A stretch of 64,000 nt of DNA, taken from Podarcis vaucheri. Taxonomy: Eukaryota. The stretch is taken from NCBI GenBank assembly GCA_965113315.1, contig OZ220370.1; one strand, written 5' to 3'. Each line of letters begins with the position of its first letter. The stretch's first letter is position 1. This document shows, in pieces, positions 11,398-62,382 of the stretch. The notes beneath the pieces are model-generated. The model did no database searches, was not told the DNA's origin, and saw nothing but the letters and a program-made list of their open reading frames with translations. The translations under genes were made by a program, and so were the position numbers.

Positions 11398-11501
11398 CTA
11401 GAACTTCCCTGCGGAAAAGCACTGTAACGTTTTAAAAATAGTTTGGCACGTATCTTTTGTGGCTTACAAACGGTTTATTATTTTGGATAGAGATAGTTAG
11501 G

Positions 11502-19173: not shown

Positions 19174-19678
19174 CAGGGGCATAGTAGGGGGGGGGGGGAG
19201 GCTACCAGGGCAATAGCCCCAGGCACATTGTTTTAGGAGGTGTTGCACATTTGGCTCCTCACACTGCCCTGTCAGCCCTGTGCTGCTTTTTGTGAGGCTA
19301 GGATCAGATCTGAATTCACAGGGCAAATCATTCAGATTGGATCCCAGCCTCGTACGGCAGTGCAGGGCTGGCTGGGTGGCGTGGGCAGGATGCCACAGCC
19401 ATGTGGCCTTCAATCCCAGTCTCGCCCTTGCTTTGTGAGGCTGGGATCAAAGGGCGCATAGCTGCTGCATCCTTCCCACATCACCCTGCCAGCCTTGAGC
19501 CGCTTTATGAGGCTGGGATGACCCAAGGGCTGTGTTGGCCAGCTGGGCTCCCCTCTGCGTAGGCGGGCAGGTGGTGCAGCGCAGCCCGCTTGGCTCCGGT
19601 GGCAGGTTCTGGTGGCGGCGGCAAGGACTGGGATGGCGTGGTGGGTTCCGTTGACCTCTGCACCCCGCTATGCCCCTG
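19174..19678. mobile_element. Non-autonomous hAT-type DNA transposon
   Basis: TIRs CAGGGGCATAG / CTATGCCCCTG, 8-bp TSD ctaggatg / ctgggatg (7/8 match), GC-rich interior. Confidence 0.7.
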
Positions 19679-22548: not shown

Positions 22549-22755
22549 CAGTTGTACCTCTGGTTATGAACTTAATTCATTCCAGAGGTCCGTTTTTAAC
22601 CTGAAACTGTTCTTAACCTGAGGTACCACTTTAGCTAATGGGCCCTCCCGCTGCCGCTGCTGCTCAATTTCTGTTTTCATCCTGAGGTAAAGTATCCGAG
22701 GTACTACTTATGGGTTAGCTGTAACCCGAATTGTTTGTAATCCAAGGTACCACTA
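22549..22755. mobile_element. Tigger/pogo-like MITE (orientation A)
   Basis: TA followed by CAGTTGTACCTC...GGTACCACTA termini. The interior is shared with copies at 22897, 56234 and 58914. Confidence 0.75.
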
Positions 22756-22896
22756 TCTTTCATTATAAGCAATGTGCCATGAGTCAGCAAAGCAGTTATG
22801 AGTTTTCTATCAGATTTTTATGAGCTGTCAGAAGAGATGACTCCTCCAGATTCTCTTTTCTTACAGCGTGGAACAAGAACAACAGGACAATGCATA

Positions 22897-23111
22897 CAGT
22901 GGCACCTTGGGTTACAGACGCTTCAGGTTACAGACTCCGCTAACCCAGAAATAGTACCTCAGGTTAAGAACTTTGCTTCAGGATGAGAACAGAAATCGCA
23001 TGGCGGCAGCAGGAGGCCCCATTAGCTAAAGTGGTACTTCAGGTTAAGAACAGCTTCAGGTTAAGAATGGACCTCCAGAACGAATTAAGTTCTTAACCTG
23101 AGGTACCTCTA
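22897..23111. mobile_element. Tigger/pogo-like MITE (orientation B)
   Basis: TA followed by CAGTGGCACCTT; reverse-complement similarity to 22549-22755. Confidence 0.75.
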
Positions 23112-26364: not shown

Positions 26365-27239
26365 CCGTATTTTTCGCCCTATAGGACGCACTTTTTCCCC
26401 TCCAAAAATGAAGGGGAAATGTGTGTGTGTCCTATGGGGTGAATGCAGGCTTTCGCTGAAGCCTGGAGAGCGAGAGGCGTCGGTGCGCACCAGGCTTCAG
26501 GAGAGCCCCGTCGCCAGCCTTTCGCACTGTCCCCCGACTTGGCTAGAAGGCTGGCGGGGGGAGAAGCCTGCTCCTCCCCGTCGCCAGCCCCGCAAACTCG
26601 GGGGACAGCGGGAGAGGCGCAGCGCGCCTTTTGCACTGTCCCCCGACTTGGCTAGAAGGCTGGCGGGGGGGGGAGAAGCCTGCTCCTCCCCGTCGCCAGC
26701 CCCGCAAACCCGGGGGACAGCGGGAGAGGCGCAGCGCGCCTTTCCCGCTGTCCCCCGACTTGGCTAGAAGGCTGGCGGGGGGGAGAAGCCTGTTCCTCCC
26801 CGTCGCGAGCCCCGCAAACTCGGGGGACAGCGGGAGAGGCACAGCGCGCCTTTCCCGCTGTCCCCCGACTTGGCTAGAAGGCTGGCGGGGGGGGAGAAGC
26901 CTGCTCCTCCCCGTCGCCAGCCCCGCAAACTCGGGGGACAGCGGGAGAAGGCTGGCGGAGGGCTTTCCCCTCCTCCAGCCCCGCAAGCTCCCAGAGTGAT
27001 GCCAAAGCTGCACGCAGCTTCCACATGGCTCTGGGTCCCGTTCTGGGGGCTGGGGGAGGGGGAAGCTCCGCTTTCCTCTCCTCCAGCCCCGCAAGCTCCC
27101 AGAGCGATGCCAAAGCTGCCAACGCTCGAGCTTCCCCAGCCCCTTGCCTGGGGGGGGGATGAATTTTTCCCCCTTTATTTCCCCCCCAAATCTAGGTGCG
27201 TCCTATGGGCCGGTGCGTCCTATTAGGCGAAAAATACGG
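26365..27239. mobile_element. Non-autonomous Tc1/mariner-superfamily (Tc2/pogo-like) element with an internal tandem array
   Basis: 27-bp TIRs CCGTATTTTTCGCC(CT/TA)ATAGGACGCAC, TA TSDs at 26363-64 and 27240-41. Confidence 0.85.
26517..26950. repeat. GC-rich minisatellite, ~110-bp unit, about 4 copies
   Basis: gtcccccgacttggctagaagg recurs at 26529, 26638, 26750 and 26860. Unit length varies with a G-run. Confidence 0.9.
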
Positions 27240-40759: not shown

Positions 40760-41020
40760 ACAGTCATACCTCATGTTACGTTTGCTTCATGTTACGTTTT
40801 TTCAGGTTGTGTCCCACGGAGACCCGGAAGTACCGAAAAGGGTTACTTCTGGGTTTCGCCACTCGTGCATACACAGGAGCACTAATTCGCGCTTCGCACA
40901 TGTGCACAAACACCAAATTGCGCTGCGCACCTGTGCAGATATGGCGCTTCAGGTTGCGGGCTTTTCAGGTTGCGAACGGGCCTCCAGAACGGATCCCGTT
41001 CGCAACCAGAGGTACCACTG
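40760..41020. mobile_element. Tigger/pogo-like MITE (different interior from the 22.5-kb family)
   Basis: TA-CAGTCATACCTC ... GAGGTACCACTG-TA. Confidence 0.7.
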
Positions 41021-41228
41021 TATAAAAATGCCTTTCTGTAGTTCCATGATACTGTGTGCAGTTTTGTAACTTCAGCTATGGGGACCCACAGGTTCTTCAC
41101 TTCTGGGTGAAAAATATTGTGGTCCATTTAGCTTAGAATGGGGGGTTTCTGACCTGTGAGCTTCATTTGGGGGTGGGGTATGTTGAATTGTGTTTGTAAT
41201 TTGTTTTAACCACTGCCATGCTTTGCAG

Positions 41229-41421
41229 ATGCCCTGTAGGTGCAGATTGGTGGTATGTGGGAGAAAAATGCGAGCAGAAGGGATCCACACAGGACACAGT
41301 TGTGATAGCAGTTGCCTCGTCTCTGTCTATATTTGCCGTTATGTTGATCATCACCATTGTAACGACCAGCTGCATTAAAAAGAAATATAGGGAAAAAATG
41401 GAAAGCCTGGGTTTACAAAAT
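41229..41421 (+). CDS. MEP1B: MEP1B exon 14 (EGF end, transmembrane helix, cytoplasmic tail)
   Basis: CPVGADWWYVGEKCEQKGSTQDTVVIAVASSLSIFAVMLIITIVTTSCIKKKYREKM...LQN, 193 nt, donor GTAAGT. Confidence 0.95.
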
Positions 41422-42902
41422 GTAAGTATTGCACTTCCGGTGGTGCGAACTTTTAGGTGGCTTTGCAATACTGAACTGTTTTCTTGCTAGGTAAGATTGT
41501 GAGGTGCAATACTTAGTCTGCCCTCAAACGTATTCTAATTAGTGACAAATAAGGGGAACTTGTGATGAAAGGTTGTGTGGCCTTTGCCAACACACACAGA
41601 GGCTAACACAACTCTGGATGCACTATCTACCGAGCCCCAGTAACTTCTGTTAGCTTATGCTGCATTGTGTGGCATTTATTTGGGCAGCTACATTTTTGAC
41701 ACAGCAATCCAAGTGAGGAAGGGTGAAACCGAGGCAGAAGAACAACCAGATTCCCAGGGTCATTGCACAGGGTAGAAGGTGGGAGGGAAATCTAGATTTA
41801 CTCCCCATCTTCTCCTTTCTTTGGACTTCATTCCTATACAAACCTATGTGTGAGTAAGTTTCACTGAACTTCATTGACACCCCCCCTTTTTTGGTAAAAG
41901 GGCTTTTCTCTCCATTGATGCAATAGAAATGAAATTTTGTTCCCCAACTGGAGTATTGGCTTTCTCTACTCCCCCCTCCCCCCTCCAGTGGCATGTCACG
42001 GGAATGCGAAGGGTTTGGGATCCAAACTTGCCTCAGTGTGCACCTAAACACTTCCTGCCCTCTTTCTGCCATTGGAAATTTCCGCAACTGCATTGAAGAG
42101 GCCTCTGTAGGCAGACCTCCTGGTTGGCATGTGAAGACAGAGTCACAGAATCTTGTGTGCCCTGGGCTACCCTCCCAAGGACTGCACCTTGAAAATGTGA
42201 TTAAACTGTGTAAGAACTAAACAAGTTTCAAAGACTGAGGCTCTCTCAAACTATCTTACCAGTCCTTGAATATATTTTATCAAAGCAGCATCAAATAATT
42301 TTAGAAGTAGCAGTCCATAATATGTTTTACTGCACCCCTCGCCTCCCCAAAAAGAGATTCAAAATGGCAGTTGCATGTCCTTACTTCTCATCTGCGGCAA
42401 TCAGCTATCTTGCCATAGAAATGTCTGTTTCTATACCCGTTTTGAAACAAAAGTATACAACTTTGGATAGTTTGCCAGCAGTTATGTTAGCCTGCTGAAA
42501 AGCATCATCTTTTGTATTTCTCATTCTGGGTTTGCAACTCCTCTTGGATGAAACGATTTTAGGGGAAACAGCCATTCTTTTGCATTAAAAACAAGACAAA
42601 AGCTATATGCCACTTCTAGGATTTAATTGAAATAAATTACTCTTCCATTGAAATTTAAAAAGAAGCTGTGGCTTTTTCCGGCCTAAAATTCTGCACAGGA
42701 ACTTCAATTTGAGACCCCTATTTCTCTTCTAAGAGTATGGAAAAGCAAGATAAACTTAGGCTGGCAAATATTAACCTGAGCTTGATTCATGCTATGTGTT
42801 CAATGTACTATGCTCTATGCAGGATGGCCATATTTATTTTGCAATTACTATAATTGTACTCTATCCAAGTTATTTAGAAGATGCCTTTTGCTCTCTTGAC
42901 AG

Positions 42903-42917
42903 AAAACACCTCTCTGA
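42903..42917 (+). CDS. MEP1B: MEP1B exon 15 (terminal KTPL-stop)
   Basis: Acceptor ccttttgctctcttgacag, phase 0, 4 codons plus TGA. The summed CDS is 2085 nt = 694 aa + stop. Candidate AATAAA at 43798-43803. Confidence 0.65.
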   Translation, partial: KTPL

Positions 42918-44109
42918 AGATAGTGAAAGCTTGGAAACCAAAATGGATGGCCTCACTTGAACACCTTATCCATAACTTCATGTCCAGCACAGTTTCTCCT
43001 TTGCCAACCGACATTTTACTTACAGGAAAAAAAGGGAAAGGAAATTATTTGTGTGTGAGTTTAAATCAATGCAAAAAAGCGGCTAAAAGTGATATTTTAA
43101 ATTTTGAGATGGTGCAAGTTTAAGGATTTCTCTAGCATGGAACATTTCCTGGATAAGCAAAGTGGTCAGATTTATTTCCACCACATAATTTATGAAACAA
43201 AACTGGGAGGTTTCCCTTCTTTATAAACAATATGGACCCAGAGTGAAGACGTGTCCTACTTTTTTTCCAGAAGGGTGTGATTTGCAGGTGGTTCCCCTCC
43301 AGAATCTTTAAATGGCCTTTTAAACACCTGAGTTCAAAAAATTGTTTGGGGATTTGGCACGATAGCATTTCAAGGGGGAAAGTGGGTGGAAAATCACATA
43401 TGCTTCAGTGGCAGCCCTTTTCTGAAAAACTCATCAACTGCCTGGCTGCTTTGTGAACTCAAAGGTATAAAAAGCTGTTAACCTCCCTTCTAGGGAGGTA
43501 ACCGAAATTCTAAGATGTGTTTAGGGCATTTCCACTGGCGATGGCTATATCAGTTGAGCAAAATATTAGCAAAACCTCTTTGGGGATAACAGAACCTGCC
43601 TGCTTTCTTCCAATATACTGAATGATGGAGCTTCCCAATTTTATTTATTAGGTTGTTAAAATGTGCCCAAGGATAAAAGTAGCTTATTGTAGGCGCCATC
43701 AGACAAAATGGGGAGAAGAGTTGTATTACTGAGGTTAGCCTTTATTATCTTGCTAACACTGCATAACAGAGTTGTACAAGTATGATGAGCAAAGGATAAT
43801 AAAAACATCAATGCCCTATTAACTTTGTATGCTCCTATGTATTAATAGGAGATGGATCTTCTCTACTGAATGTCCCCATTGTAAAGAACTCTCATTACCT
43901 TCAAAGATCAAACCCAAAATAGCTTTAATATACTTGCAGCCATGAATGTATTGTATTAAAAGGTGCCAGTGAAGAAAAACATGTATGTATCATCTTAACT
44001 ATAGGCTGTAAGTCTTATTAGCTAAAATATGAAATTTAATCAGTTGCTTTAATGTGAATTCTCTGAAAACCGTATCTTTGCCATATCATTTCTTCATATA
44101 TATATATAT

Positions 44110-44460
44110 AATCACATGTTTTCCAAACATAACACCCCATCTTATACAACATAACAAACCTTTGGCTATCACAGCCTAAGACTTCTGTCAACCTCGACTA
44201 ATGGTTTTCTAACTCTCTTTCTGATTTTGCATTTTATTTTAATAGTTATTGCTAAATCCAAATCCTAAACAAACTCCTTCTTAGTCCTTTTTCGCAATAA
44301 TTCATATAGTTTTCTTTACAAAACTTCTTGCAACCCTACAAGCGATTACAGTTGTCTTTCAAATATAATATATCATAAATTTCTTCCAATCTTTCAGGAA
44401 AGTCTGGTCTTGCTGGTTCCAAATTTTCCCAGTTAATTTTGCCAACTCAGCTGCCATATC
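44110..44460 (-). mobile_element. L1-clade LINE 3' end fragment
   Basis: The minus strand encodes AELAKLTGKIWNQQ..., resembling the extreme C-terminus of reptile L1 ORF2, followed by UTR-like sequence. Confidence 0.5.
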
Positions 44461-44758
44461 ATTTCTTTAAAATTATTGTCTTTGATATCTTTCTCAGCTG
44501 ATGAGAGAAAGCTGGGAATGAGAAGCAAAGAATGGACAGTTCTCCCAATGAAAGTGTGTAGGAAGTGGAGTCTTCTGAGAATCTATTCCTTATAAATGAT
44601 CTGGAGTATGGGGTAAACAGTGAGGTGCGGACTATGCTGATGCTACCAAATCATTCAGGGTGTTTAAAACAAAACAAAAAGAAAGATTACAAGGAGCTCT
44701 AAAAGAATCTCTCCAAATTGAGGTGAATGGGCAGTAAAATGGCACAATGAAACTCACT

Positions 44759-44939
44759 TCTAGTAGCACCTTAAAGACCAACTAAGTTAGTTCTTGGTAT
44801 GAGTGTGTATCTGAAGAAGTGTGCATGCACACGAAAGCTCATACCAAGAACTAACTTAGTTGGTCTTTAAGGTGCTACTGGAAGGATATTTTTTATTTTG
44901 ACTATGGCAGACCAACACGGCTACCTATCTGTAACTGGA
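44759..44939 (+). mobile_element. Penelope-like retroelement remnant with inverted terminal duplication
   Basis: Perfect 42-bp inverted repeat (44762-44803 / 44838-44879), 15-bp direct repeat ACAATGAAACTCACT (44744-44758, 44940-44954), and a hammerhead core as known for Penelope-like element pseudo-LTRs. Confidence 0.7.
44807..44844 (+). ncRNA. Minimal type-I hammerhead ribozyme motif
   Basis: GTAT (stem I) - CTGAAGA+A - GTGTG catg CACAC (stem II) - GAA - AGCT (palindromic stem III) - C - ATAC (stem I partner). Confidence 0.7.
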
Positions 44940-47900
44940 ACAATGAAACTCACTGTAAATGATGCACATTTGAGGCAGAAAATTCTAATTTCACATATGC
45001 ATTAATAGGATCTGAGCTGGTGGTGATAGACCAGAAATGAAACCTTGCAGGCAGGGTGGATATCTTGATAAGGATATCAGCTCATAAGCAGGAACTGAAA
45101 AAATAGGGATAATTAGGGACTGAAAAATAAAATTGCCCGCATCATTATGCTGTTGGAATAATACTGTAGGAATGGGTTTCCCAAATCTAAAATCTAAAAT
45201 CTAACTGTGCAGTCAGTCTGAAATGGGCTCCAAAATCCCCATTTTTCCTTCTCCAAGGGTGCATTAGCTAAAAACCATTAACTTGAGCACTTGAGCAAAT
45301 GTATAACAGGAACCCAGCTGTATAAACAATACTTAAATATTTCTGTAACAGATCTAAGCTAATGCAGTAATACCATTATGATAATGCTAGCGATTAAATA
45401 GGAATCAGACACATGAACATTAGGTAAAACTTCAAACTATTTACATCCATAAAGTTATTTATGGGAGAGGTGGTTAAGCTGTAAAATATTACCGACCATC
45501 TGAGAAGCACACTGAACTGGAGGACAGATTAATTGCATACCATTTGCATATCTTCAGAAAGTCTGCTGCCTGCCTGTACATCAGATGGTACTGCCACCAC
45601 CATCTCCCCATCTTCCTCTTTTGCCAGGTGGGCAGGCAGCAGATGAACCTTGGCTGGATCCAAATCACCATAATCAGGACGAAAATAGCTGCTGGCAGTG
45701 TTTTTCAAATATTTGCACCTGAGTTCCCATTGGAGTACAATAGCTAGCCTCTCTGAGGGTGGAAGACACAAAGAAATGAGAATGCCAGTGGAGTACTGTG
45801 GTTAGAGAGTACAGAGTTCAAATCTTCACTCTGCTTCAAGGTTTACTGCTTTTCTTGGATTCCCCAGCCCCCCATCTATCCTACCCAAAAGGGTTGCTGT
45901 AATTATAAAAAGGGGTTACCATCTAGGTTGCTTTTTGCTCCTTGGAAGAAGGGTTTGAGAAAAATAAAAGGTATCCTTCTAGACTAGAGCTTGTTCTACA
46001 TATTATGCTACAGCATACATTAAAAAGTGAAACTAAATCTAAAGATGTTCAGAATGCACAGGAAAAAGTCAGGTAGTTTCTAAACCGGCTTTCTTTAAAA
46101 TGACATAAACACTTGCACAATTTATTGGGTGCTAACAGCTAGCGGTTATTTTCCTTCTGTTCTCTACACAACCCAGATTAAAAATGTCAAGCTGCATATG
46201 GTAGGCATGACTGAAATTTGCAACCCTATATTATGGCAGTTGTGATTCAACCTTTGAAAAATTGAATCTTAAAGTTGTTAATGCACTAACCTACTATAGG
46301 TTAGAAATTGGTTTGCAAATCTTGGTTAATATTAGGGTATGTTCATGTTACTACCGGTACTTACTGTGACTCTCAACATGCTCCCACCACTGTTTTTTAT
46401 AAAGTTGGGTTCACACAACATCAGCCTCAATCCACCTGGTGTCCTGCAGCTTTTCAGGAAAACTCCTCTTTGATGTGTTTTTCTTGAAACCAGCTCCCAT
46501 CCAGTTTGAAAATGGAACCGACGCTGTGCTGTGAACAGTTTGGGCTGCTTTTGCAGGTGCGCAGATGAGGGCTTCACATGGTGCAGGGAAAGAAATCAAG
46601 TGAAGGCACACACACTTTTGCGCTGGTGTGCACAGTGATGGGAGAAAGCCACTTGGAAATGCAGCAGGAGTATGGGAGAACTTCACAGCTTCTCAGGCTG
46701 CTAGTGTGAGTTCAGATGAAATGCTGCATCACAGTTAATGCGAAGTTGGAGAAATCCATCTGACTGAGAAAATGCTCAATCTTCTAATCATGAATCTTCT
46801 AAACACTAAACCAACCCTAAATGCAACTCTTTTGATAGCAAACTAGGATGGTTAATGCCAGCAGGATTGTAACAAAAGGGATGTCAGTATTCTCAGAAAA
46901 ACTCTTAAGGTTTGCAGAAAGTAAAAATACAAAATACAAAAAGCCCAAGAGGGCAAACCCTTTCTCCAAAACCCAAATTAGGCCTGAGCATACTTAGTAG
47001 CCATGGACTTTTAACTGTCAATCGGAAAAGAAAAATGGAAAACTTGGGGAAGTGATGGAATGAACTACTGAAGGAACACATGGCATAACACCCAATACAC
47101 TGTTACATTTTGTTGCAGACCCACCTGTGCCTCTATATTTGTGATTGGCGGACAAGTGAAATAGCAGAAGTAGTCTGATCTTAGGAATAGACAGGGCTAG
47201 TTTCACAGAAAATCATAGACCCCAACAAGCTGTGGTGAGTCTCAGGCTCATACATTTTCCCTCTTTTACATGCCACAGGAAATGCAAAGAGTCTGCTTCC
47301 TTTTTAAAGTAATCACAGCTTCCGAGGATGTCCAAATTCATGGAACTGTAGTTTGTTTAAACTATCATTAGTGATAACAAGTTGTGATTATACCAGTTTC
47401 CCATTACTTCTGAATTAGGACAGAAACCAGACTATACATCTGTACAGATTCTGAGACACAGATGCATATATTAAGATTGCACAAGAGTATTTTAAAAAAA
47501 GATTCCAAGAAACAGTCCTGAAAATAGATGAGATCAAGATGTGCAATAAAACCAGCAGACCTTTTTTTAAAAAAACAAACAGATCTCATAAGTATGCAGA
47601 CAAATTGATCAGCTTTGCACTTTGGCAGTATTCCAACTTAATGAAAGAAATTCATTTTAAGAACTCCTGTCTTTCACTTCAATTATTTTACCCAAAGAAT
47701 CTAGCAATTAAGACCTTAGCATGCCAATACTGTGTTTCTAATCTGTCCATTTAACTTCTGGATGAAATAATAAACTCTACGCATTTAAAATATCATGAAA
47801 ATAATATCTTTAATATACAGTTATATATATACTTACAATACACCATTGACATTTGTTCATATATATAGTAGGGTTATTTATTTGCTTCTGGTTTAAATAA

Positions 47901-49730
47901 ATGTTCCTCACCCCAAAACCTGTAAAGAGATTATCAAACCGGCACATACTTTCACAAACACATACTTAGTTTTAACAATAGAATATATTTACTAAGCCAA
48001 TAAATTAGGTTTTGTTTTGAAATTTGTTTATTTTTGGCATACATGGAACCCATTTGGAAATTGAATAGCTGAGCCCAGAAGCTAATAATTTGCCATTATC
48101 CTTTTATGTCTGATCAGCTTCTTTATTTAAGAATTAAAGGAATTCCATTTTTTTTAAAAAAGCTCATTTGTTCTAGATATTATTGAGCCTTATGTGTTTC
48201 ACTTATGCACGATGTATGCATGAAAAGGGTCTTTTACTACTTTGCTGTTATTGTTTATAGTCTCATCTTGTAGTGTTTCAACTATAAGGCAACTGCATGC
48301 TGAAATACTGACTTTACATTTCAGTTTCATAACTGACACACCTTAAATTTGTGGAAGTTAATGCTCATATTGCAAATGCCCCAGTACAATACTAGTAGTG
48401 GCGGTAGGAAAGGGAGTATCATTATTTTTATTTTTGGAGCTGCATCCATCCCACTCTTACACCCTGCCACTTAAGAGGCAGCTTGTTCCTCATACTAAAA
48501 AGGGTTTCTTGCCACCTCTAGTTTCCCCGAGGCAGTACAAGTAATTAATCAGATGCAGGATTGTTTCTCCAAACCTCTTACGGGATTTTGGGCTGACGTT
48601 AAGAAGTTTTCATGGCCCAGACTGCATCAGGTATGACTTACTACTGTGTTTCTCGATGCAACTGTTAAGAACCCACTTATACTTGTGTATGCTGGTAATG
48701 CAGATCAAGTGAGAGATGGAGCCTCATCCATTCAGCAATGCAGTAAAGTGCCTAAGTCTGTTTGGCCAACACATCTCTCCACCTCCTACTGCATCTGAAA
48801 ACAAACTGGTTGCATTAATAACCTACAGGGAGGAAGAAGGGATGGAAAACTTTCCTTTCCTGAACGTCCTGAAGTTAACTTACCTTACAACCCAAACCAC
48901 TGAATCGATCATTAGTGTCTACTAATGAAACTGTTGCCATTATGAAATCTTATTATACAGCATTATATATACCATAGTCATAGACATATTATGGGACTTT
49001 GTTATAAATTTAGCTTTAACACACACACACCCAATTTAGTTGCCCACTTGGCTTTCAAAAGTGCATTTTCCTTATGCAATTAAGCAAACATTCACTAAGG
49101 CAAGTGTGGGAACCCTTTGGCATTCTAGAAGTTGCTGGACGACAACTCCCATCATCTCTGGCATTTGCCCATGTTTGCTGGGGCTGTGGGCACTGTAGTT
49201 CAGCAACATCTGGAGGGCCAAAGTTCTCCACATCTGCCCTAAAGCTTTAGTTTTTGCCATTAGCAGTATGATGCCACCCCTGTGTACAATCCATTCTTAC
49301 TTGGAAGAATGTTCCACAGACTTAAGCACGGCTGCTCCATCCCAAGTATGCACACAGGAGTCTTCCTGAACTTGATGGGCCTTATTTCCAAGGAAACAGA
49401 CTTAGGGCTGCACTGTAAGCATCTTAAAGAAACTGAACACATTACACTGCACTATACGATTAGCCGCACCAAAGCAACAGTTACAGGTATCTTCTGGATG
49501 GGCTCAATACTCCCAGGCTTCCTCCTATTTAAAGGAAAACCTATTGAAATCCTGTTGTGAAAACAAGAACACCCATATATAAAGGACTATTATACAAGGT
49601 GTTATTGTGCTGCACATAAAGGGATTTTGCAGCAAGATGATTAAATGCAAAACTATGTCCATCGCACTGCTCCGAAACAAAAAGCAGCATCAATTCTGCT
49701 TTCAGCCAGCACTTTAGTTATTTATCAAAC

Positions 49731-50075
49731 ATGAATAGAACAGGGGCCATAATCAGTGGCGAATCAGTGGCACATGCCCTCCTAGCGTTCACTCTTTACA
49801 AAGACCTGAGGAACAATATTATGCCTCCTTTATTGACCATTCTGGGTCAACCAACCACTGCTACAGTGTCGTTTCTCCTGGCAGATCAAGAGGAGCAGAT
49901 GACTACAAAGGTTGCAAGGTTTCTAGCTGGGGCAATCAGAATAAGGTCCACTATTTGACGGCTGATTCAGGACCCTAAACTGTGTTTGATATAACTGACT
50001 TTTTATTTTGTTCTATGTAAATCATAATTTTTGTTGTTGTTGCTATGGCCGATGGCTGACGCAAATAAAGTTCCA
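49731..50075 (+). mobile_element. 3' end of a non-LTR retrotransposon (clade unresolved)
   Basis: ESVAHALL..TLYKDLR resembles a decayed LINE C-terminal knuckle (E...H.L..C..Y...R). It is followed by a short UTR ending in AATAAA. Confidence 0.4.
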
Positions 50076-51576
50076 CTCATCACCACCACCAGGGGCTATA
50101 AGATGGGATACTCCTTTTAATCAGAATATATATGGGAGGCTGCATGGTTAACTTTGAGGACTCCATCATATGAGAGGTCCTTATTACACCTCCCAGTCCT
50201 ATGTTGCAATCTGCCAAGGAGCAGGCACTGTCCCGGCAAGAATGCTGCCTGCCAGCCTGGGTGCTTCCCCTTGCTCTGAATGCTATCCGCATGGCATCAT
50301 GGAAAAATTCTATCTCTGATCCTGCAAGAAATAAGATCTGTGAACATACTTTGGGAGTGAGGAGACACTGGAGTCCTTGTGTAAGTGGTCAGGGTTGAAA
50401 GGATTAGTATTGCTCCTTGGGTGGTGCACAAATGCTTAGGAATGCTCCCTCAGCCATTAATCCGCCAATGGACTAACATTGTTAAAAATATTTTGCTGGG
50501 GGATGCTGGTGGGACAAACGAATTCTCAAAACGCTACAAGGCAACAACAATGATCTGTGGAAGCAAAGGCAGAGAACAGAATATGGGGGGGAAACCCAAC
50601 AACATTCCAATGCAGAAATGAGAGTCACTACAAAGTCTGGGATAAAAGGACATGCAGTGTGTGTGTGTGCTACTAATCTCACCACTCTAAGTCAGGTGTG
50701 GGGAATGTTTGGCCCCCCAGATGATGCTGAACTATAACTCCATTGACCATTGACCATTGACCATGCTTGCTAGGGCTGCTGGAAGTTGTTCAGCAACATT
50801 TGAAAGGTCACCAGTTTCCCACACCTGCTCTCACTAACTTCTTAAATATGATGACCCAGAAGGCAATAAAGTTACAACCAGACATGAAACAGAGTACGGT
50901 AAATTCAGTGTGCCATATAGCACTTATGAACTGAATGGATTTATTTGTAAATTAAATTAAGGTATGGGATTATTAACTGCTTTGATGCCACACCAAGACC
51001 AGAACCACAATCCTAAACACTTGTTATTGAAGTAAATCCTATTGTGTTCAATGAGGCTTACTCCTAGGAAACATGCATAAGATTATGGTAGGATTGAGGT
51101 TGCACAAAGCACAGAATTGTTTTCCATTAAGAGAAAACTTGCTAGAAATTGGAAACATTGCCTTCCCCCCCATCATCCTGCAAACCCTTCACTATTAAAA
51201 GATTTTAACCATGTGGTGAGCGCTTGTCAAATCACAAGGGATTATACACAGTGAGGAGCTATCACAGGAACCCTTGCTTGAAGTACAAATAGGTTTTTGA
51301 AAACAGAAACAAAGATGTCAGGCAACTGCAATTTAACTTCCAAACTGATAAGCACTCAACTGCCAAGGTTTGCTATATGATGCCAAACCACAGTTAAAAT
51401 TTCTCAACAATGGTTTGACATTATTGTCTGAATGAACTGAAAGAATGTTGGCTTGGCTTGGATGCTAAGAGAAGTTGAATCTAAGAGAAGTTGGATCCTA
51501 AGACAATTTTAGGCTTTTCTCTTTCCTTAGCAGCCCCCCCCCCCTATTGCTCAGAAGGGTCAATGATCCTCTAGAG

Positions 51577-51712
51577 CAGGCATGGCGAAACTTGGCCCTC
51601 CAGCTGTTTTGGGACTACAACTCCCATCATCCCTAGCTAACAGGACCAAGGGTCGGGGATGATGGGAATTGTAGCCCCAAAACAGCTGGAGGCCCAAGTT
51701 TGGCCATGCCTG
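51577..51712. mobile_element. hAT-Charlie-type MITE (136 bp, palindromic)
   Basis: CAGGCATGG...CCATGCCTG termini and a perfect 8-bp TSD CTCTAGAG. Older relatives lie at ~49100-49238 and ~50693-50827. Confidence 0.85.
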
Positions 51713-54531
51713 CTCTAGAGTCTTTTCGTGGGGCACAGGAGGCTGCAAGGGGAGGAAGAGTCAGGAAACTCTCCTTCCTTTAATTTACTTACGTTAACTG
51801 ACCTTACAACGGAAACCATTGGCCATGTTCACACATAACACTAACCCATGGTGCTTATCAGTGCTTTTCTTCTAGAAAAGCTTCTAGAAAAAGAGGTGTT
51901 GGTACTGTGTACCTTGATTAGCCCCAGAAAAAAGCACCGGTAAGTAAAAAGGAACTATGGATAACACAACAAGTCAACATTAAGGGAAAATAAAAGTAAG
52001 TACTGGTGATGTTCTCTAGAGACTTTGGCTCATTCCAGATTGTGCACATGGTTTAGCATTCCATGCGAACTGGGCCACTGAAGTTAAAGTACAGGCTATT
52101 CCCCACAGAATTTCTTCCTATACAAATGCAGTCCAGTGCTGTACTTGGCCACTGAAGTGCTTGCAATCCTATAAGATACCGGGGGACGGGGGACGGGGAC
52201 ATTACATCATGAGAATTCCTGGGATCATCACTGACATCTCCTCACATGAGAATCCACCTAACTACACTAGTCTACTCTACTCATGTATGGAGAAAGTACT
52301 TTTAATCAAGTTCCCAAAGTGTGTGTTTTTTTAAAAAAAAATCAAGCAGTTTACAATCTCCCCCCTAATGGCAAGAACTTTCTTCAGCTTTCTCCCACAA
52401 TTACAGCATGCAGTCTTCTGTAAGCTTCCTAAGTCGTTTTTTCCCCAATGAACAAAGATAACTGAAGAAAAAATAATGAAAATATCACATTAAGAAACAC
52501 TGCATTAAGGATTGGATGGGGGGGGGAAGCTTTAAATACAAACATGAAATCCTTTATCGTAGCTGTTTAACTCTTATGAATAAGCAATGGGATTAGTAGT
52601 GTTGTGTTAAGACCTGGATTCCCTTCCTAAGACTTTGATGTATTTGTTGTCTACATAATGAAAACAGGCTGGCTAGGTAAATACATCACACACCATGTGG
52701 GCCAAGTTTGCATTCTCCTCACCCCACTTTTTAAATAGTCAAATGCATTTCATAGATTAGGATCCTAAAACATTCATATATTATTTCAAGAATAGGAGGG
52801 TAACCTCAACTATTCTACTTCCTCTAAACATTTTTTAATCATCATTTAATCAGCTTAATTTTGATTAGACTAGATTTAGTTTTGGGAAATGTGAACACGT
52901 TTAATTTAGGTTAGTGTTTAAGTTTCACTCTTTCCTAATTATGGTTTTTTTAAGAAACCTTAGAGAAGCGGCAGCAATACAAAGCATCTAGGATGAACCA
53001 CTGAACTGCTGCATCTGTGTCTTATTTCCTGAAAATTTGCACTCCAAGGCAGATCATTCTCACCTTGTGTGCATTTTACACCCAAGCCAATGGGTGCGTT
53101 GTTCTCTAACAGTTATTTGTACTAATGCAAGCCATCAAAATTTGCTCAGATTAAATGCAAAGTAGTTTCAATCACATTTGAAATCCAAATCTTTCTTTGT
53201 TTCTCTAATACAAAACCTTTTCCAAAATAAATTCTGTAAAACAAAGAGCACATTTCAGAACAGCACATTTCTGCATTTCAGAACCCCTTTGTTCCCCAAC
53301 ACTGAAAGGAACCTATGCTTATTCTCTCCCTTTCTGTATCTGTTATATGCTATGCAAGAGAACTCGACTGGGTAAAAAAGAATACCTGCCTTGATTGCGA
53401 CAGTTTCTAAGGGAAACAGTACGATGGTAAATTAAACTGGGGCCATTCTGAGAAGTAGATTGGTAGGGCTATGACTTCTAAACTGTTTGGGCTGAACTAC
53501 CCCAAATCCTGTCCTTCCCACAGAGCTATATGAAAGACCAAGGCCTTCCTTCTCCCTCAAGTGCTATTAGGTTGAAAATTATGCTGCGTTCATAGATCAT
53601 TGCCCCTTTATAAATACATGTGTGTAGAAGCCGAATGTGTTTTTTGCTACCTCTCTTTTCCCCTCCTCGCCCTGTAAATTATAGCTGAGCAGAAAGAGAG
53701 GCCACAGGTGGATAACAAGGCAGAAAGGAAAACAATGCATGTGTGAGCAGGGCAGTGACAGCTCACAAGAGATTTAAGAGCAGAGGATTACCGGTAAGTA
53801 TTGCTTTCCTAAAGGCCAACAACTCTATAAAAACCAACCCTGTTTTCAACTAGGCAGAGAAATAAGTGGTGAACTTGTATTGCCTTTTCAATGAGAAATT
53901 TGCACTCATCTGGAGGTGATGCGAAGCTACTAAATTCTTCGTCGGTTTTTTTTTTGCGGTTTAAATTTCCTTCTGGAAGATGGATTCATTCATAAAAGGA
54001 TTCTAATCACAACCCACATATAAAAGGAATGCTATCCCAACAATTAGAACGAGTGGGAGAAGGACACTAACCACTGGATAAATCAGAACTGAAGGCAAGG
54101 TATGCAGCCATCAGAATACAAAAAAACAAAAACAAAAAACCCCCCAAGAGGAAATACATTTATTGGTAAACACACAAAAATCAAGGTGATTTGTGTGCTG
54201 TTCAGCTTTGCCTAATCAATAATAATAAATATAATGTCTTCATAGACTACACTGAGTACAAATTAAATTCCCTTTAAAGCCCACTGTTTAGCAGCTTCTG
54301 AATGTTCAGGGATGCACAAGGCACACCTCCCTGCTTCTACTATGTACAAAAGAGTCTGCTCACCACTCAGAATATCTGCATAGTAAGAATGTTTTTTTCC
54401 TGCTACTATATTTACATAAGAGCAACAGAGGATTTTAGTGCAAAAACAAAAACAAAAACGAGAGACTGTGTGTTAGCCCCGGTGCTTCTGGCACACCTCT
54501 CTCTGAGTTTTATTGCACCGGCTTCGTAGCA

Positions 54532-55444
54532 CTACATTTTAGGTCGCCAGCCGTTAATGAACTGCAGTATTTTCTTAACCTGCAACTTGCTTAGCTTGAA
54601 GTCCTCCAAAAGGATCTCTTCATTGAGCTGAACAAGCAAGTTGCCGTCAATCTTCTCTGTAACGAAAAAGGATATGACATCCTCAGATAAACCTATAAAC
54701 CTCAGAGATTTAGAAACTTCCTCTATTGAAAGTCCAGACAGATCCACAGGGGGCTGCCAAGGAGAGCCGTCGCCGCAGGACCTTGGTGCTAGCTGAAGGT
54801 GGAGGGGAGATGAGAAAGGATAAGGGATGGCAAAGATGTCTTGCATGCCCTTTTTGCTAAGGTACTGATCTTCAGAAAGGTCTGGTGAGCCTGCCTGCGG
54901 TTCTTCCTCGGCACCATCTATTCTGAAAGGCAGGGGACACAAGTCAAGGCCGGGCTTCTCATCTGCCGCTTTTGGTGCACGAGGGGGTAAGGCAGGGCAC
55001 GAGAGAGACTGCGGTGTGCTACTGACTGCCAGGCTCTTCTCATCGGTGCACTCGAGAGAGTAACTCGCCGACTTTGGGCAAGTGGGCACTGCACAACCAG
55101 GTTCTGCTGCAGCTGGCAGGGTGTCCCCTACAGGAAATTCACTTCTATCCAAGTCAAATGTAAAAGTTGCTGGGCAGTTTCTCTTTGGTGTGCCAGGAGT
55201 CTTCTGTCTTGGATAACTGTAACTCCTGCTTGGGTCCAATAGAAATTCACCCCTGTTAAGGCCTTCAGCAGCTCCGGAACAATGATTTGGCCACGACAGC
55301 CTGGAGGACAGAGCATCAGCAGAGGGGCTTCCAAAAGGCAGTAGGTTGCCAAAATCTTGTAGGTCAGCCTTCACTGTGCTGCACGGATAGCAAGCAACAG
55401 GAGCACTCTCGGAGGCAGACTCAGCTTCTCCTTCTGCAGCATTG
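54532..55444 (-). CDS. GAREM1: GAREM1 last coding exon (C-terminal SAM domain)
   Basis: SYSYPRQKTPGTPKRNC...LSGLSIEEVSKSLRFIGLSEDVISFFVTEKIDGNLLVQL...QFINGWRPKM-stop. The 5' boundary is inferred from phase. Confidence 0.93.
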
Positions 55445-56233
55445 CTTTTTTTTTTTAAAGATAAGCAAAAAGATAATTACTTTGGTACTTGGTGGTCATG
55501 TGAGAAAGCTATTACTTTGCCTTACATTATGTCAAGATGGTGGTCAGTGTCTTTATACAATTTCCCTTCTGCAGAACTGTTTGCACATCACAAATTCAAA
55601 CACAGGAATTAGACTTGGGGGGCGACATGCAAAGCCAAACAACACCCACATTCCCTGAAAAGCAGTTAAGTGTACTGACAATTATTTTGTAATTTCTAAG
55701 CAAATTTGTTCACATAAGTGGAGGGCACCACATTGATTAAGCTTGCTGCTATACACCAATGGGAAGTTTTTTTAAAATCACTTTTCATCATGCCAGTAAA
55801 GCCTGAGAAGTTATCTAACATTGCATGTCAGACTAAATGTATAAGGGGAAATAGGGTGGTACACTGTGTATTCTGAACTGAAATAATGAAATCTGGACTC
55901 TGGTAATTTAATAAAGAACAGATGTCTGGCCCCTGTACCTTAAACCTAGTAGGTAGAAGGATCTAGACGGATATGAGAGATAATTCTCATGTTCATTCTA
56001 AGGGACTGAACTTGCAAAACATGTGCTCTATGACAGTGCACTGTAATGCTTCCTTTGACATTAATATCCAGTGCCTCACAATCCATAGTATGCCCATCTA
56101 CATGTGGACCAATTTTCAAAGCACAGTGGAAAACTGCAGGGATTTCTTGTTACAGTAATTTGGACTTCCCTAATGAGTTGGGTTGTTTTTTAAAATGGCT
56201 GGAGTAATCCACTTCAGTGACTGTTCCCTTATA

Positions 56234-59640: not shown

Positions 59641-60698
59641 CTAGTTTTTGGACTAGTTTTCTGTTCTTACTTTCACCTCAGTTTTGTAGCATTTTGCATA
59701 CTTTTGAAAATCTGTCTGATGAGAGTGAATGTTAGGACAAAAAACAACAACACATGCACGTACGCTGCCAAAAAAGAGTCTCCATTGACCCTTAACTCCT
59801 TAAAACCATTGTCTATCTCTACGCCATATTTTATTTAATTCCACCATTTTATTGATTTCTACTGCTGATTTTTCCATTCAGGGCCTATTATTTTTTGACC
59901 CATACAGCAGACATATGCTCATCTCTAATGCAATTTTAATCATACTGTTCCTTGAAGCAAAGTATTACATGGAATACTTACGGTTTGCAACATAGAGACC
60001 CCTTTAAAAAAACACACAAAAAACCCCCTGCCTGTTCAATTTGCTAAGTCAATTTCCATCACTCAAGTGTTTCTCCATTTTTCTTCTTCCCCAGCAGCAT
60101 TAAGCAGGTTCCAAGCTGGTAACCTTTTGTTCTTGGGAGGACATACTCATTCAGCGTGGAGTTTCATCTTACCATTAAAAATGGCAAAAATTATTTGCAT
60201 AGCAAAAAAACATTTCTCCAAAAAAACATTTACATGTGAAGTTGCACAATGCACAGAAAAATGCATGCTCTACAGGGAAACATTTTTATTGGACGCAGTA
60301 AAATCCTGTTCTCAAATGTGGTTTACTTCCAAACCAATCTAGAAAAGTGCAAACTCTAGAGGGGGAAAAATGAACACCAAGGCTGCTATCCTATACCCAT
60401 CTTATTGTGAGTAAGACCCACTGAGCTCAGCGAGGTATACTTTTAAGTAGATATATACAGGATTGTACTTAAGCCTTCAAGAACTATGAAATGGGTATGG
60501 ACTAATTGAGGAAATAATTCTTTCTGCAGAAGATCTGGGGGATCCCAAAGCATCTGAATTCACAATTATGACAGTAGAACTTGCAATCCTGGGTCAGGAA
60601 ATCAAGTTCACCCCATTATCCAGATCAACACTTTTAAGTTTATGATCTGGACCTACCATCACCCATCTTTATTAGAAAAAAGAAAGACCATGACTTAC

Positions 60699-61877
60699 TG
60701 CTTCTGATTTAGGAGGCACAGGTGGTGGAGGTAGGGAAACTTCTGGAGATTTTGATGTTACTGTTATAGGCCCAGGTGCTGGAAGAGAAGAATTGCCACA
60801 CTTGGACCGGAAAGAACTCCTATAGCTGTCACATTTGTTCTTCTCACTTTGTGAGCGAGTGAAAGGCTGATCATTCATTTTCCCACCCCCCTGGTCCAGC
60901 CACAGTTCCTCATAAGGAAGTTCTGGTTTGGTAGGTAAACACAACGATTCTTCACAAACTTCAGGGAACAGGTAGTCGCTGCTGCCATCGCCAGAGTCCT
61001 GGCACTGCAGGGAATCATGGGAGAATAAAGCCCACTCATTGCACAAGTCCCTGCAGCCATGAAGGTTCACCTCACTATTTCCATGGAGGTTGTTTCCATA
61101 AACACAAACCGAGAGGCGGTGGAAGGATTGCGTCAACTCGTCCCGAGCGTAGCTAAGAGAGTTTGGCATGTGGTTGTGGCTGTGGGGCCGGGCTTTCTGC
61201 GGACTTTTGCACTCTTCATTCCAGTCGGCTTTCACATCTCTCACGCCACGGGAATACTCGTCTATGTCAAACTGCTCTTGGCAGAGACTGAACCAGTGCT
61301 TGACAAAGGCTTCGTGACCCACCTCCCCTTTCACAAGGCTTTCGGGGAGCGTGAACTTTGGAAGAGCCAAATGCAAAGGGAAGTGCATGGGAATGATTTT
61401 GTTGCTGTGCAGCGCACAACAAACCACCACAGTCTTGGTCTGAATGTTGACGAACTTGTAGCGGTGCCCCTCGCGGACAAAATGCAGGTCGTAAGGGTTT
61501 CGCGGCGGAGAGCTGGGCACAGTCACATTCACGGGCAGCCGCGTCTTCTCCACGATGTTGCGAATGGTATGTTCGCCCTCCTGCATCTGCAGCTCCAGGG
61601 GGCTGCGCGTGCTGAAGCGGCCCTTGCATTGGAAAGGAAGGCTGATGCTCTCATTGGTCCTGTGGTTCATGCAGATCAGGCACGGCATCTTGCCTCTGCC
61701 CAGCTTGCTGATGGAATTGAGCTTCCCGATTTTCTTGAAGATGGTGTTGAGCCGTGACTTCTCCTTGGAAGATTTTGCATAGAGGATTTCCGCTTGCCCC
61801 ATTAACGTCAGCTCGTCTCCCGTGCAGAGGGTGATGTTGTAAAGCTCGGTGTCTTCGTTGCATTCGCCCGAAGCCAC
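60699..61877 (-). CDS. GAREM1: GAREM1 large internal exon (CABIT domain and downstream region)
   Basis: VASGECNEDTELYNITLCTGDELTLMGQAEILYAK...LPPPPVPPKSEA, 1179 nt, phase 0/0, canonical splice sites. Upstream exons lie outside the window. Confidence 0.95.
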
Positions 61878-62382
61878 CTGTAGCACAGAAAATTTAAGAG
61901 ATGCCCAAATAAGTCATTTCGAACATGAAGCATAAAAGCAACAGCTGCAGAAACAACAAATTAAAAATTATTGAAACTGCAGATAACGGATCAACATTTA
62001 TTTAAAATGTCTTATTTAAATTTCCTCTACAACCAACCTGATTTCTTTACTGAATATGAAATTCTATGAATCCATATGTACACAGGCAATTCTGACATAT
62101 CCTGGAAAAAATTATGCCCCAGCCAAAGAATAAAAACAATGCAATTAATGTAGGGAAACCAAACATTTGAACTGAGTAAGACCACCCCCCGCAAAGCCTT
62201 GCAAATTAGGACTGAGTCACACTGACTTTGCTGAATTTTTCATCCCACTCCCATAACTAGGGAATGGCAGTGTGGTAGCTGCCAGCTGCATTCTCTCTTT
62301 TCTGGCTTAAGGCAGCCTCTATAGTTCTGCCGTGGATCTGTGCTTCAAGGACATAATGGAGTACTACAATGGTTGAATACTC

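What the first reader, a model, noticed from the sequence alone, without database searches (positions are those of the whole stretch)
44759..44939. Hammerhead ribozyme core caged in a perfect 42-bp hairpin just downstream of MEP1B
Seen: CUGAAGA(A), stem II GUGUG/CACAC, GAAA, palindromic AGCU, predicted cleavage after C44840, and a 4-bp stem I GUAU/AUAC. Most of the core lies in the 34-nt loop of a perfect inverted repeat whose left arm would pair with the cleavage site and the stem I 3' strand. Established: Penelope-like elements carry minimal hammerheads with palindromic stem III, thought to work as dimers. Inference: it is on the MEP1B sense strand ~1 kb past the candidate poly(A) signal and between two convergent genes. 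It could cleave read-through RNA, be switched off by the hairpin, or feed small-RNA production.
Basis: partly seen in the sequence, partly recalled or inferred. Interest (0 to 1): 0.7.

Follow-up and report, generated by a model that had tools for sequence, protein, structure and literature searches.

The report
Young Penelope-like insertion with buried hammerhead
This is a 181-base piece of a very abundant repeat, likely a Penelope-like retrotransposon, that is missing at this spot in two related animals; it carries a mini hammerhead-ribozyme motif predicted to be folded shut by a flipped partial copy that likely arose during insertion, so it is probably an ordinary by-product rather than a switch for the neighbouring MEP1B gene.

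Summary
A complete minimal type I hammerhead motif lies at 44807-44844, inside a hairpin of 42 perfect bp (47 with one G-U) with a 34-nt loop. It is therefore a recent insertion with a target-site duplication, from a very high-copy family. Its anatomy is the published Penelope-like (PLE) one: a 5'-truncated sense copy with hammerhead, an inverted truncated copy joined head-to-head, and a 57-nt tail on one side only. The motif matches the published turtle minimal hammerhead, with one compensatory pair in each stem. Other copies show inverted junctions at other positions, several deleting the core, so the 'cage' looks accidental. The hairpin is predicted to block the ribozyme fold by about 15 kcal/mol. 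Published minimal hammerheads do not cleave as monomers, or need PLE protein. I found no evidence of a role for MEP1B, but the RNA run could not test it. No RT/GIY-YIG parent ORF was found, so the clade is unassigned. Verdict: new member of a known kind, low interest.

The parts
44744..44758 (.). Left copy of the 15-bp target-site duplication
   Evidence: Exact repeat of 44940-44954 that does not extend outward; empty alleles keep only one copy (records 13 and 18)
44759..44803 (-). Inverted, 5'-truncated copy of the element (reverse complement of 44838-44882, 45 nt, one mismatch at 44761); forms the left arm of the hairpin
   Evidence: the two extra pairs at 44757-44758 belong to the duplication
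44804..44806 (.). Head-to-head junction. The family sequence departs from the window 5' of 44805 and continues into a pyrimidine-rich stretch ending in CAG
   Evidence: Loose ends before 44805 in 4 of 4 runs (table 7); the antisense part of P0001 reads into the same upstream sequence
44805..44939 (+). Sense, 5'-truncated copy (135 nt) of the family's pLTR-like end
   Evidence: five unrelated database ORFs overlap other copies of it
44807..44844 (+). Minimal type I hammerhead motif: stem I 44807-10/44841-44, CUGAAGA plus A 44811-18, stem II 44819-23/44828-32, GAAA 44833-36, palindromic AGCU 44836-39, predicted cleavage after C44840
   Evidence: fits the published consensus and the turtle motif
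44819..44832 (.). Stem II plus loop is itself a perfect 14-nt palindrome, able to pair between two molecules
   Evidence: it dominates the predicted dimer fold
44838..44882 (+). Right arm of the hairpin, the part of the sense copy mirrored by the inverted copy
44883..44939 (+). 57-nt tail present only on the sense copy
   Evidence: loose ends pile behind 44882 and behind 44935-44937 (table 7)
44940..44954 (.). Right copy of the 15-bp target-site duplication
43798..43803 (+). Context: candidate MEP1B poly(A) signal, 961 nt upstream of the insertion (use not shown)
54532..55476 (-). Context: last coding exon of the convergent gene (GAREM1, name recalled), about 9.6 kb away
   Evidence: PDB 2dkz LOC64762, E 5e-39; CABIT exon at 60675-61913

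Best explanation
44759-44939 is a recent insertion, absent at this site in two related samples and flanked by a 15-bp duplication, likely made by a Penelope-like retrotransposon, and its hammerhead motif is predicted to be inactive here because an inverted partial copy, likely a by-product of integration, pairs over the cleavage site. Inferred mechanism: a PLE protein from an intact copy elsewhere nicked both target strands 15 nt apart. Each 3'-OH primed reverse transcription inside the element RNA, one at the far end of the tail (44939) and one at its near end (44882). The first cDNA ran to about 44805, just past the hammerhead. The second stopped at 44838, three bases beyond the cleavage site, which suggests an uncleaved template. 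Joining their ends gave the head-to-head hairpin. The hammerhead is inherited cargo from the parent's pLTR. If the site is transcribed, the RNA would form a 45-bp hairpin, not a ribozyme, and the insertion is most likely neutral.
For: Empty site: X6 record 18 runs 44419-44743 straight into 44940-45259, and X11 record 13 runs 44422-44743 into 44940-45195. So 196 bp (element plus one duplication copy) are missing in 2 of 2 other DNA samples (table 8). X1 contigs cross both junctions at flank-like depth (24.9 and 25.2, against 24-28). High-copy family: summed depth over 44712-44912 is 0.57-1.73 million against 11-28 on unique flanks (not a copy number, as the tool warns). Published PLE anatomy: an inverted 5'-truncated copy, mostly head-to-head, a one-sided tail and a TSD (passages of PMC3846280; bioRxiv 2021.04.23.441226 and PMC8557442). 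PLE protein nicks and extends both strands, starts RT at two internal sites that define the tail, and mainly uses uncleaved RNA (PMC11167929). The motif fits the minimal-hammerhead consensus and differs from the turtle motif by one compensatory pair in stem I and one in stem II. Junctions vary among copies: 6 of the 15 joints shown (43 not shown) start in the left arm and land at 44817-44910, none keeping CUGAAGA. 2 of 5 family-overlapping database ORFs show other head-to-head junctions: P0001 has two whole cores and P0006 has lost the core. Both arms share a base at 44852 that gives a stop where 5 of 5 other copies read lysine, as expected from one template species. Folding: stem I pairing probability is 0.83-0.96 without the left arm and 0.0 with it; the hammerhead-compatible fold costs 15.2 kcal/mol with the arm and 0.8 without.
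Against: No RT or GIY-YIG ORF was linked to this family: two protein searches gave only short ORFs without those domains. The closest published motif (turtle) carries no asterisk for PLE association in that paper. The tail is 57 nt, longer than the 30-40 nt described. X1 is probably the window's own source, and its junction contigs reach only 28 and 23 letters into the element, under the tool's 31-letter bridging rule. The joints are single contigs with sides of 21-26 letters; reading them as other inverted copies is my inference, and copies with nearly this geometry would not be listed as joints. The two-strand priming comes from an Anolis Poseidon element, not this family. PMC3846280 argues instead for self-priming on an antisense template. 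Neutrality is inferred from youth, not measured.
Confidence: 0.88

Rival explanations
1. Same element, but the inverted arm arose by fold-back or self-priming (one arm copied from the other) or by later rearrangement, not by a second priming on the other target strand.
For: The arms overlap in sequence and share a base seen in none of 5 other copies. PMC3846280 interprets head-to-head repeats as self-priming on an antisense template.
Against: The outer end of the inverted arm (44882) coincides with a pile of family loose ends (55-60 contigs in each of 3 DNA runs), as expected for a second RT start. That pile could also be a subfamily variant. The clean 15-bp duplication argues that both ends formed in one event.
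Confidence: 0.3
2. The hairpin is a functional cage: a conditional ribozyme or small-RNA source acting on MEP1B read-through or on the convergent gene.
For: The motif is intact, lies on the MEP1B sense strand 961 nt past a candidate poly(A) signal, and the arm covers the cleavage site exactly. PLE copies yield small RNAs in a rotifer.
Against: Absent in both other samples. Junctions vary among copies. No competing fold is predicted to open the cage: stem I probability is about 0 at all 22 transcript lengths tested (equilibrium, not kinetics). A single minimal hammerhead did not cleave; the Anolis one needed PLE protein and left no RNA ends in vivo.
Confidence: 0.04
3. It is a copy of a short non-autonomous, SINE-like or retrozyme-like RNA of about 130 nt that starts at the hammerhead and is mobilised by PLE protein, rather than a randomly truncated piece of a full PLE transcript.
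For: 60-63 contigs in each of 3 DNA runs have unrelated flanks just before 44807 (agreement 0.34-0.37). P0002 and P0004 also begin their match at 44807.
Against: 36-37 contigs per DNA run and 306 RNA reads continue upstream of 44805 into a shared sequence, so longer forms exist. There is no tandem array here, and the hammerhead is minimal, not the tandem retrozyme type.
Confidence: 0.25
4. A miRNA hairpin, a MITE, or an assembly fold-back artefact.
For: Rfam miRNA models hit below their gathering scores (for example mir-559, 59.9 against 95 bits).
Against: The hits are equal on both strands and reflect a generic long stem. The inverted repeat is not terminal on the right side, which has the 57-nt tail. 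The 15-bp duplication, empty alleles and junction contigs fit a real insertion.
Confidence: 0.02

Closest known systems
Minimal hammerheads (min-HHR) of metazoan Penelope-like elements; Chrysemys picta example in Fig. S3 of PMC4209133
   Same: Identical CUGAAGAA core, G-C closing pair of stem II, GAAAGCU, 4-bp stem I and 5-bp stem II; one compensatory pair in each stem.
   Different: Loop II is 4 nt against 7 nt and the cleavage triplet ends in C against U. Here an inverted copy buries it. The turtle motif was not tied to a PLE ORF in that paper.
Penelope insertions with inverted pLTR, tail and TSD (Adineta vaga Pen2a, PMC3846280; general scheme in PMC8557442)
   Same: Head-to-head inverted truncated copy, tail on one end only, target-site duplication.
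   Different: No ORF between the repeats; whole unit only 181 bp; tail 57 nt against 30-40; TSD 15 bp against 8-10.
Anolis Poseidon element PAc (PMC11167929)
   Same: Hammerhead in the pLTR; two 3' ends defining a tail; an ATG lies in the stem II region here too (44825).
   Different: Stem sequences differ from the Poseidon/Xena-type motifs listed. The frame here has a stop and no link to an RT was found.
Animal non-LTR retrozymes (bioRxiv 10.64898/2026.07.22.740005)
   Same: Short, non-autonomous, hammerhead-bearing, PLE-related; mean consensus 176 bp in reptiles.
   Different: Retrozymes are defined by head-to-tail tandems; this copy is single and inverted.

Membership tests
Minimal type I hammerhead (PLE min-HHR) | CUGANGA and GAAA...UH core with an extra base before stem II and a G-C closing pair | tested here: met
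   consensus
Minimal type I hammerhead (PLE min-HHR) | Short stem I and palindromic, loopless helix III | tested here: met
   4-bp stem I and AGCU
Minimal type I hammerhead (PLE min-HHR) | Self-cleavage as dimer or with protein | not testable with these tools
   The predicted fold is blocked in this copy; one RNA run showed no pile of ends (table 6), which is not a test of this locus
Rfam hammerhead families | Score at or above gathering threshold | tested here: not met
   No hammerhead model among the hits
Penelope-like element (EN+) | Hammerhead in a pLTR-like end | tested here: met
Penelope-like element (EN+) | 5' truncation with adjacent inverted copy, one-sided tail and target-site duplication | tested here: met
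   compared with passages
Penelope-like element (EN+) | Interspersed high-copy family with empty sites | tested here: met
   (2 of 2 other DNA samples empty; depth 4-5 orders above flank)
Penelope-like element (EN+) | Parent copies encode a telomerase-like RT and a GIY-YIG endonuclease | tested here: inconclusive
   Searches gave 2 and 7 short proteins, none with these domains; no host genome is held
Neptune or Poseidon clade | RT phylogeny and Zn-finger linker | not testable with these tools
   No ORF available; no Dfam or Repbase here
Non-LTR retrozyme | Head-to-tail tandem array of hammerhead units | tested here: not met
   No tandem array in 41000-50000; one motif in the window
microRNA precursor | Family score and processed small RNA | tested here: not met
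   All miRNA hits are below gathering score; small RNA was not tested

The most novel reading that the evidence does not exclude
In carriers, MEP1B read-through across this new insertion makes a 45-bp hairpin that hides the hammerhead and is diced into small RNAs against a family of many thousands of copies. A random Penelope inversion would then become a segregating, self-silencing locus, and the ribozyme would be released only when PLE protein or an antisense RNA opens the stem.
Probability: 0.04. Interest if true: 0.55.

Novelty: new member of a known kind. Interest (0 to 1): 0.18.

Why it matters
As a locus it matters little: it is one young copy of an abundant repeat. It is a clean in-genome example of the PLE signature (empty allele, 15-bp duplication, two different 3' ends, head-to-head join) and fits the two-strand, two-start-site reaction shown in vitro for an Anolis element. 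A census of the family could test that mechanism in vivo and explain why many copies begin right at the hammerhead. For the scan, the lesson is that reptile 'hammerhead in a perfect hairpin' findings are expected by-products, and that Rfam missed this motif.

Tried and rejected
Rfam: no hit at gathering score in the window; only sub-threshold miRNA-type hits at E<=10. No whole genome is held, so no census of copies was possible. Pattern scans for other copies with flanks found 0 loci in metagenome contigs and 0 in viral contigs. No second copy lies in the window, so there is no nearby dimer partner. Protein searches for a parent ORF, using the frame through the hammerhead, returned 2 and 7 short proteins. 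Five overlap other copies of the repeat, two (P0005, P0007) look like chance, and none has RT or GIY-YIG. No PLE ORF was seen among the 30 of 94 long frames in the window that I scanned with Pfam. Expression: no RNA holder listed. The one raw RNA run laid (X23, organism B, about 12% read, tissue unknown) had depth 0 over 42300-42902 and about 0-2 on the unique flanks. 96% of its 1404 reads ran on into other sequence, strands were equal (212 against 202), and there was no pile of ends. It comes from a species whose DNA run lacks the insertion, so it does not test this locus. Earlier scan findings: 3 look-ups, nothing. The bacterial promoter and terminator scan was irrelevant and empty. Supplement 2 of PMC11167929 held no text, and the supplements of the 2026 preprint were not available; both may list reptile families. 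Eight paper searches showed no paper on this particular family, which does not exclude a Repbase or Dfam entry. Rejected: miRNA, MITE, tandem retrozyme, assembly artefact, conserved regulatory element.

Full report
Observation. The inverted repeat is perfect over 42 bp (44762-44803 with 44838-44879), reaches 47 bp with one G-U, and encloses 34 nt. It folds far better than chance (z -11.66; 0 of 200 shuffles). A minimal-hammerhead descriptor, written after I saw the motif, finds only this site in the window and nothing in 300 shuffles. Rfam gives no hammerhead hit at gathering score or at E<=10. The upstream gene is meprin beta, with AATAAA 961 nt before the element. The convergent gene matches LOC64762 and CABIT (the name GAREM1 is recalled), and its last coding exon is about 9.6 kb away. 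That the host is a lizard is my recalled impression from SINE-like repeats near 39.5-40.6 kb; I did not test it.

What was missed. 44759-44939 is flanked by an exact 15-bp repeat (44744-44758 and 44940-44954). I laid 4 of the 24 listed runs. In X6 (same species label, other sample) one contig runs from 44743 straight to 44940, with 325 and 314 letters on the two sides. In X11 (organism B) one does the same, with 329 and 257 letters. So 196 bp, the element plus one repeat copy, are absent in 2 of 2 other DNA samples. Their long flank contigs differ from the window by about 1-2% (16 in about 1810, 29 in 1952, 18 in about 1840 and 52 in about 2990 letters). In X1, probably the window's own source and so not independent, contigs cross both junctions at flank-like depth. 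They reach only 28 and 23 letters into the element, below the tool's 31-letter rule but as expected where a contig enters a repeat. Summed depth over the element is 0.57-1.73 million against 11-28 on unique flanks. The tool warns this is not a copy number, but it shows a very abundant family. The feature is therefore a recent insertion with a target-site duplication.

Anatomy. The insertion is a 45-nt antisense copy (44759-44803, mirror of 44838-44882) joined head-to-head to a 135-nt sense copy (44805-44939). The last 57 nt of the sense copy have no mirror. Family loose ends pile behind 44882 and behind 44935-44937, and before 44805 and 44807 (only 24 loose-end rows were shown, 1217 were not). 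Published PLE insertions have this layout: an inverted 5'-truncated copy, most often head-to-head, a tail at one end only, and a TSD (passages of PMC3846280; of bioRxiv 2021.04.23.441226 and PMC8557442; of PMC8969392). The hammerhead fits the consensus in Fig. S3 of PMC4209133. Its closest listed relative, by my reading of that alignment, is the painted-turtle motif: same core, with a compensatory C-G to U-A change in stem I and G-C to U-A in stem II. That motif was not marked as PLE-associated in the paper, and I found no RT or GIY-YIG parent. PLE membership therefore rests on the motif and the insertion anatomy, and the clade is open.

The cage looks accidental. Six of the 15 joints shown (43 not shown) begin in the left arm and land at 44817-44910. 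Read as other inverted copies, none keeps CUGAAGA and none covers the cleavage site. This is an inference from short contigs, and the list is biased against copies like this one. Independently, 2 of 5 database ORFs that overlap other copies are head-to-head with different junctions: P0001 carries two whole cores and P0006 has lost the core. Both arms here share a base at 44852 that creates a stop where 5 of 5 other copies read lysine, so the arms come from one template species or from each other.

How it likely works. Shown: insertion, duplication, empty alleles, two-part anatomy, high abundance. Established for an Anolis PLE (PMC11167929, main text parts 1-2 of 4): the protein nicks and extends both target strands, starts reverse transcription at two internal sites that define the tail, mainly uses uncleaved RNA, and its hammerhead cuts only with protein, with no RNA ends at the site in public RNA-seq. 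Inferred: two primings 15 nt apart, one at each tail boundary, gave the long and short cDNAs, and their ends were joined. The short arm runs 3 bases past the cleavage site, consistent with an uncleaved template, though 3 bases are weak evidence. Fold-back self-priming is the main rival for the arm. Predicted: without the left arm the hammerhead stems form (stem I probability 0.83-0.96); with it they do not (0.0; penalty 15.2 against 0.8 kcal/mol), at any of 22 transcript lengths tested. In PMC4209133 (main text parts 1-2 of 4) a single minimal hammerhead showed no cleavage and dimers showed low cleavage. No partner copy lies in the window.

Role at MEP1B. This is untested rather than disproved. 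The RNA run came from a species whose DNA run lacks the insertion and showed almost no MEP1B signal; its element reads came from other copies, equally on both strands, with no pile of ends. Youth, absence in relatives, variable junctions and the blocked fold make a host function unlikely (about 4%).

Papers seen: PMC4209133 (main text parts 1-2 of 4; supplement parts 1-2 of 3). PMC11167929 (parts 1-2 of 4, passages; supplement 2 without text). PMC3846280, PMC8969392, PMC8557442 and its preprint (passages). bioRxiv 10.64898/2026.07.22.740005 (abstract, passages, Results part 1 of 2). Eight searches showed no paper on this family; Repbase and Dfam were not available.

Verdict. A real and well-observed motif, but an ordinary product of a known class of retroelement: new member of a known kind, interest 0.18.

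Noticed in passing
window 11442-16487 (+): Uninterrupted 1682-aa ORF with SCAN, integrase, then RT and RNase H. Integrase before RT is the order of Gmr1-type Ty3/Gypsy elements (Gmr1 is mentioned; the SCAN link is recalled). It looks like an intact LTR retrotransposon.
   Followed up: partly
window 44804-44807: The family sequence upstream of the hammerhead ends in a pyrimidine run plus CAG at 44805, like a 3' splice site (P0001). In Drosophila Penelope the intron also ends at helix I. Separately, 60-63 contigs per DNA run have unrelated flanks just before 44807, with a consensus last letter G, which may mark an RNA start or a copied cap.
   Followed up: partly
window 44807-44938 (+): A 44-codon frame through the hammerhead and tail has one stop here and is open at that codon in 5 of 5 other copies, with an ATG at 44825. 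It may be the N-terminus of the parent ORF; no full-length protein was found.
   Followed up: yes
window 44109-44710 and 45114-45515: The flanks are themselves repeats (depth about 10-100 times unique flank), so the element landed among other, probably older, repeats.
   Followed up: no
window 47727-48300: RNA reads of one orientation begin to appear (depth 0.8-6.3) near minus-strand poly(A) signals at 47882-48127. This is possibly the 3' end of the convergent gene, about 2.8 kb from the insertion.
   Followed up: no
window 42479-42490: Likely last MEP1B coding exon of three codons plus stop, after a donor near 41421; read by eye, not confirmed by RNA.
   Followed up: no
window 22554-23106, 51569-51720, 19341-19519, 26517-26946: Other long inverted repeats (65-104 nt arms) that look like MITEs or nested repeats.
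   Followed up: no
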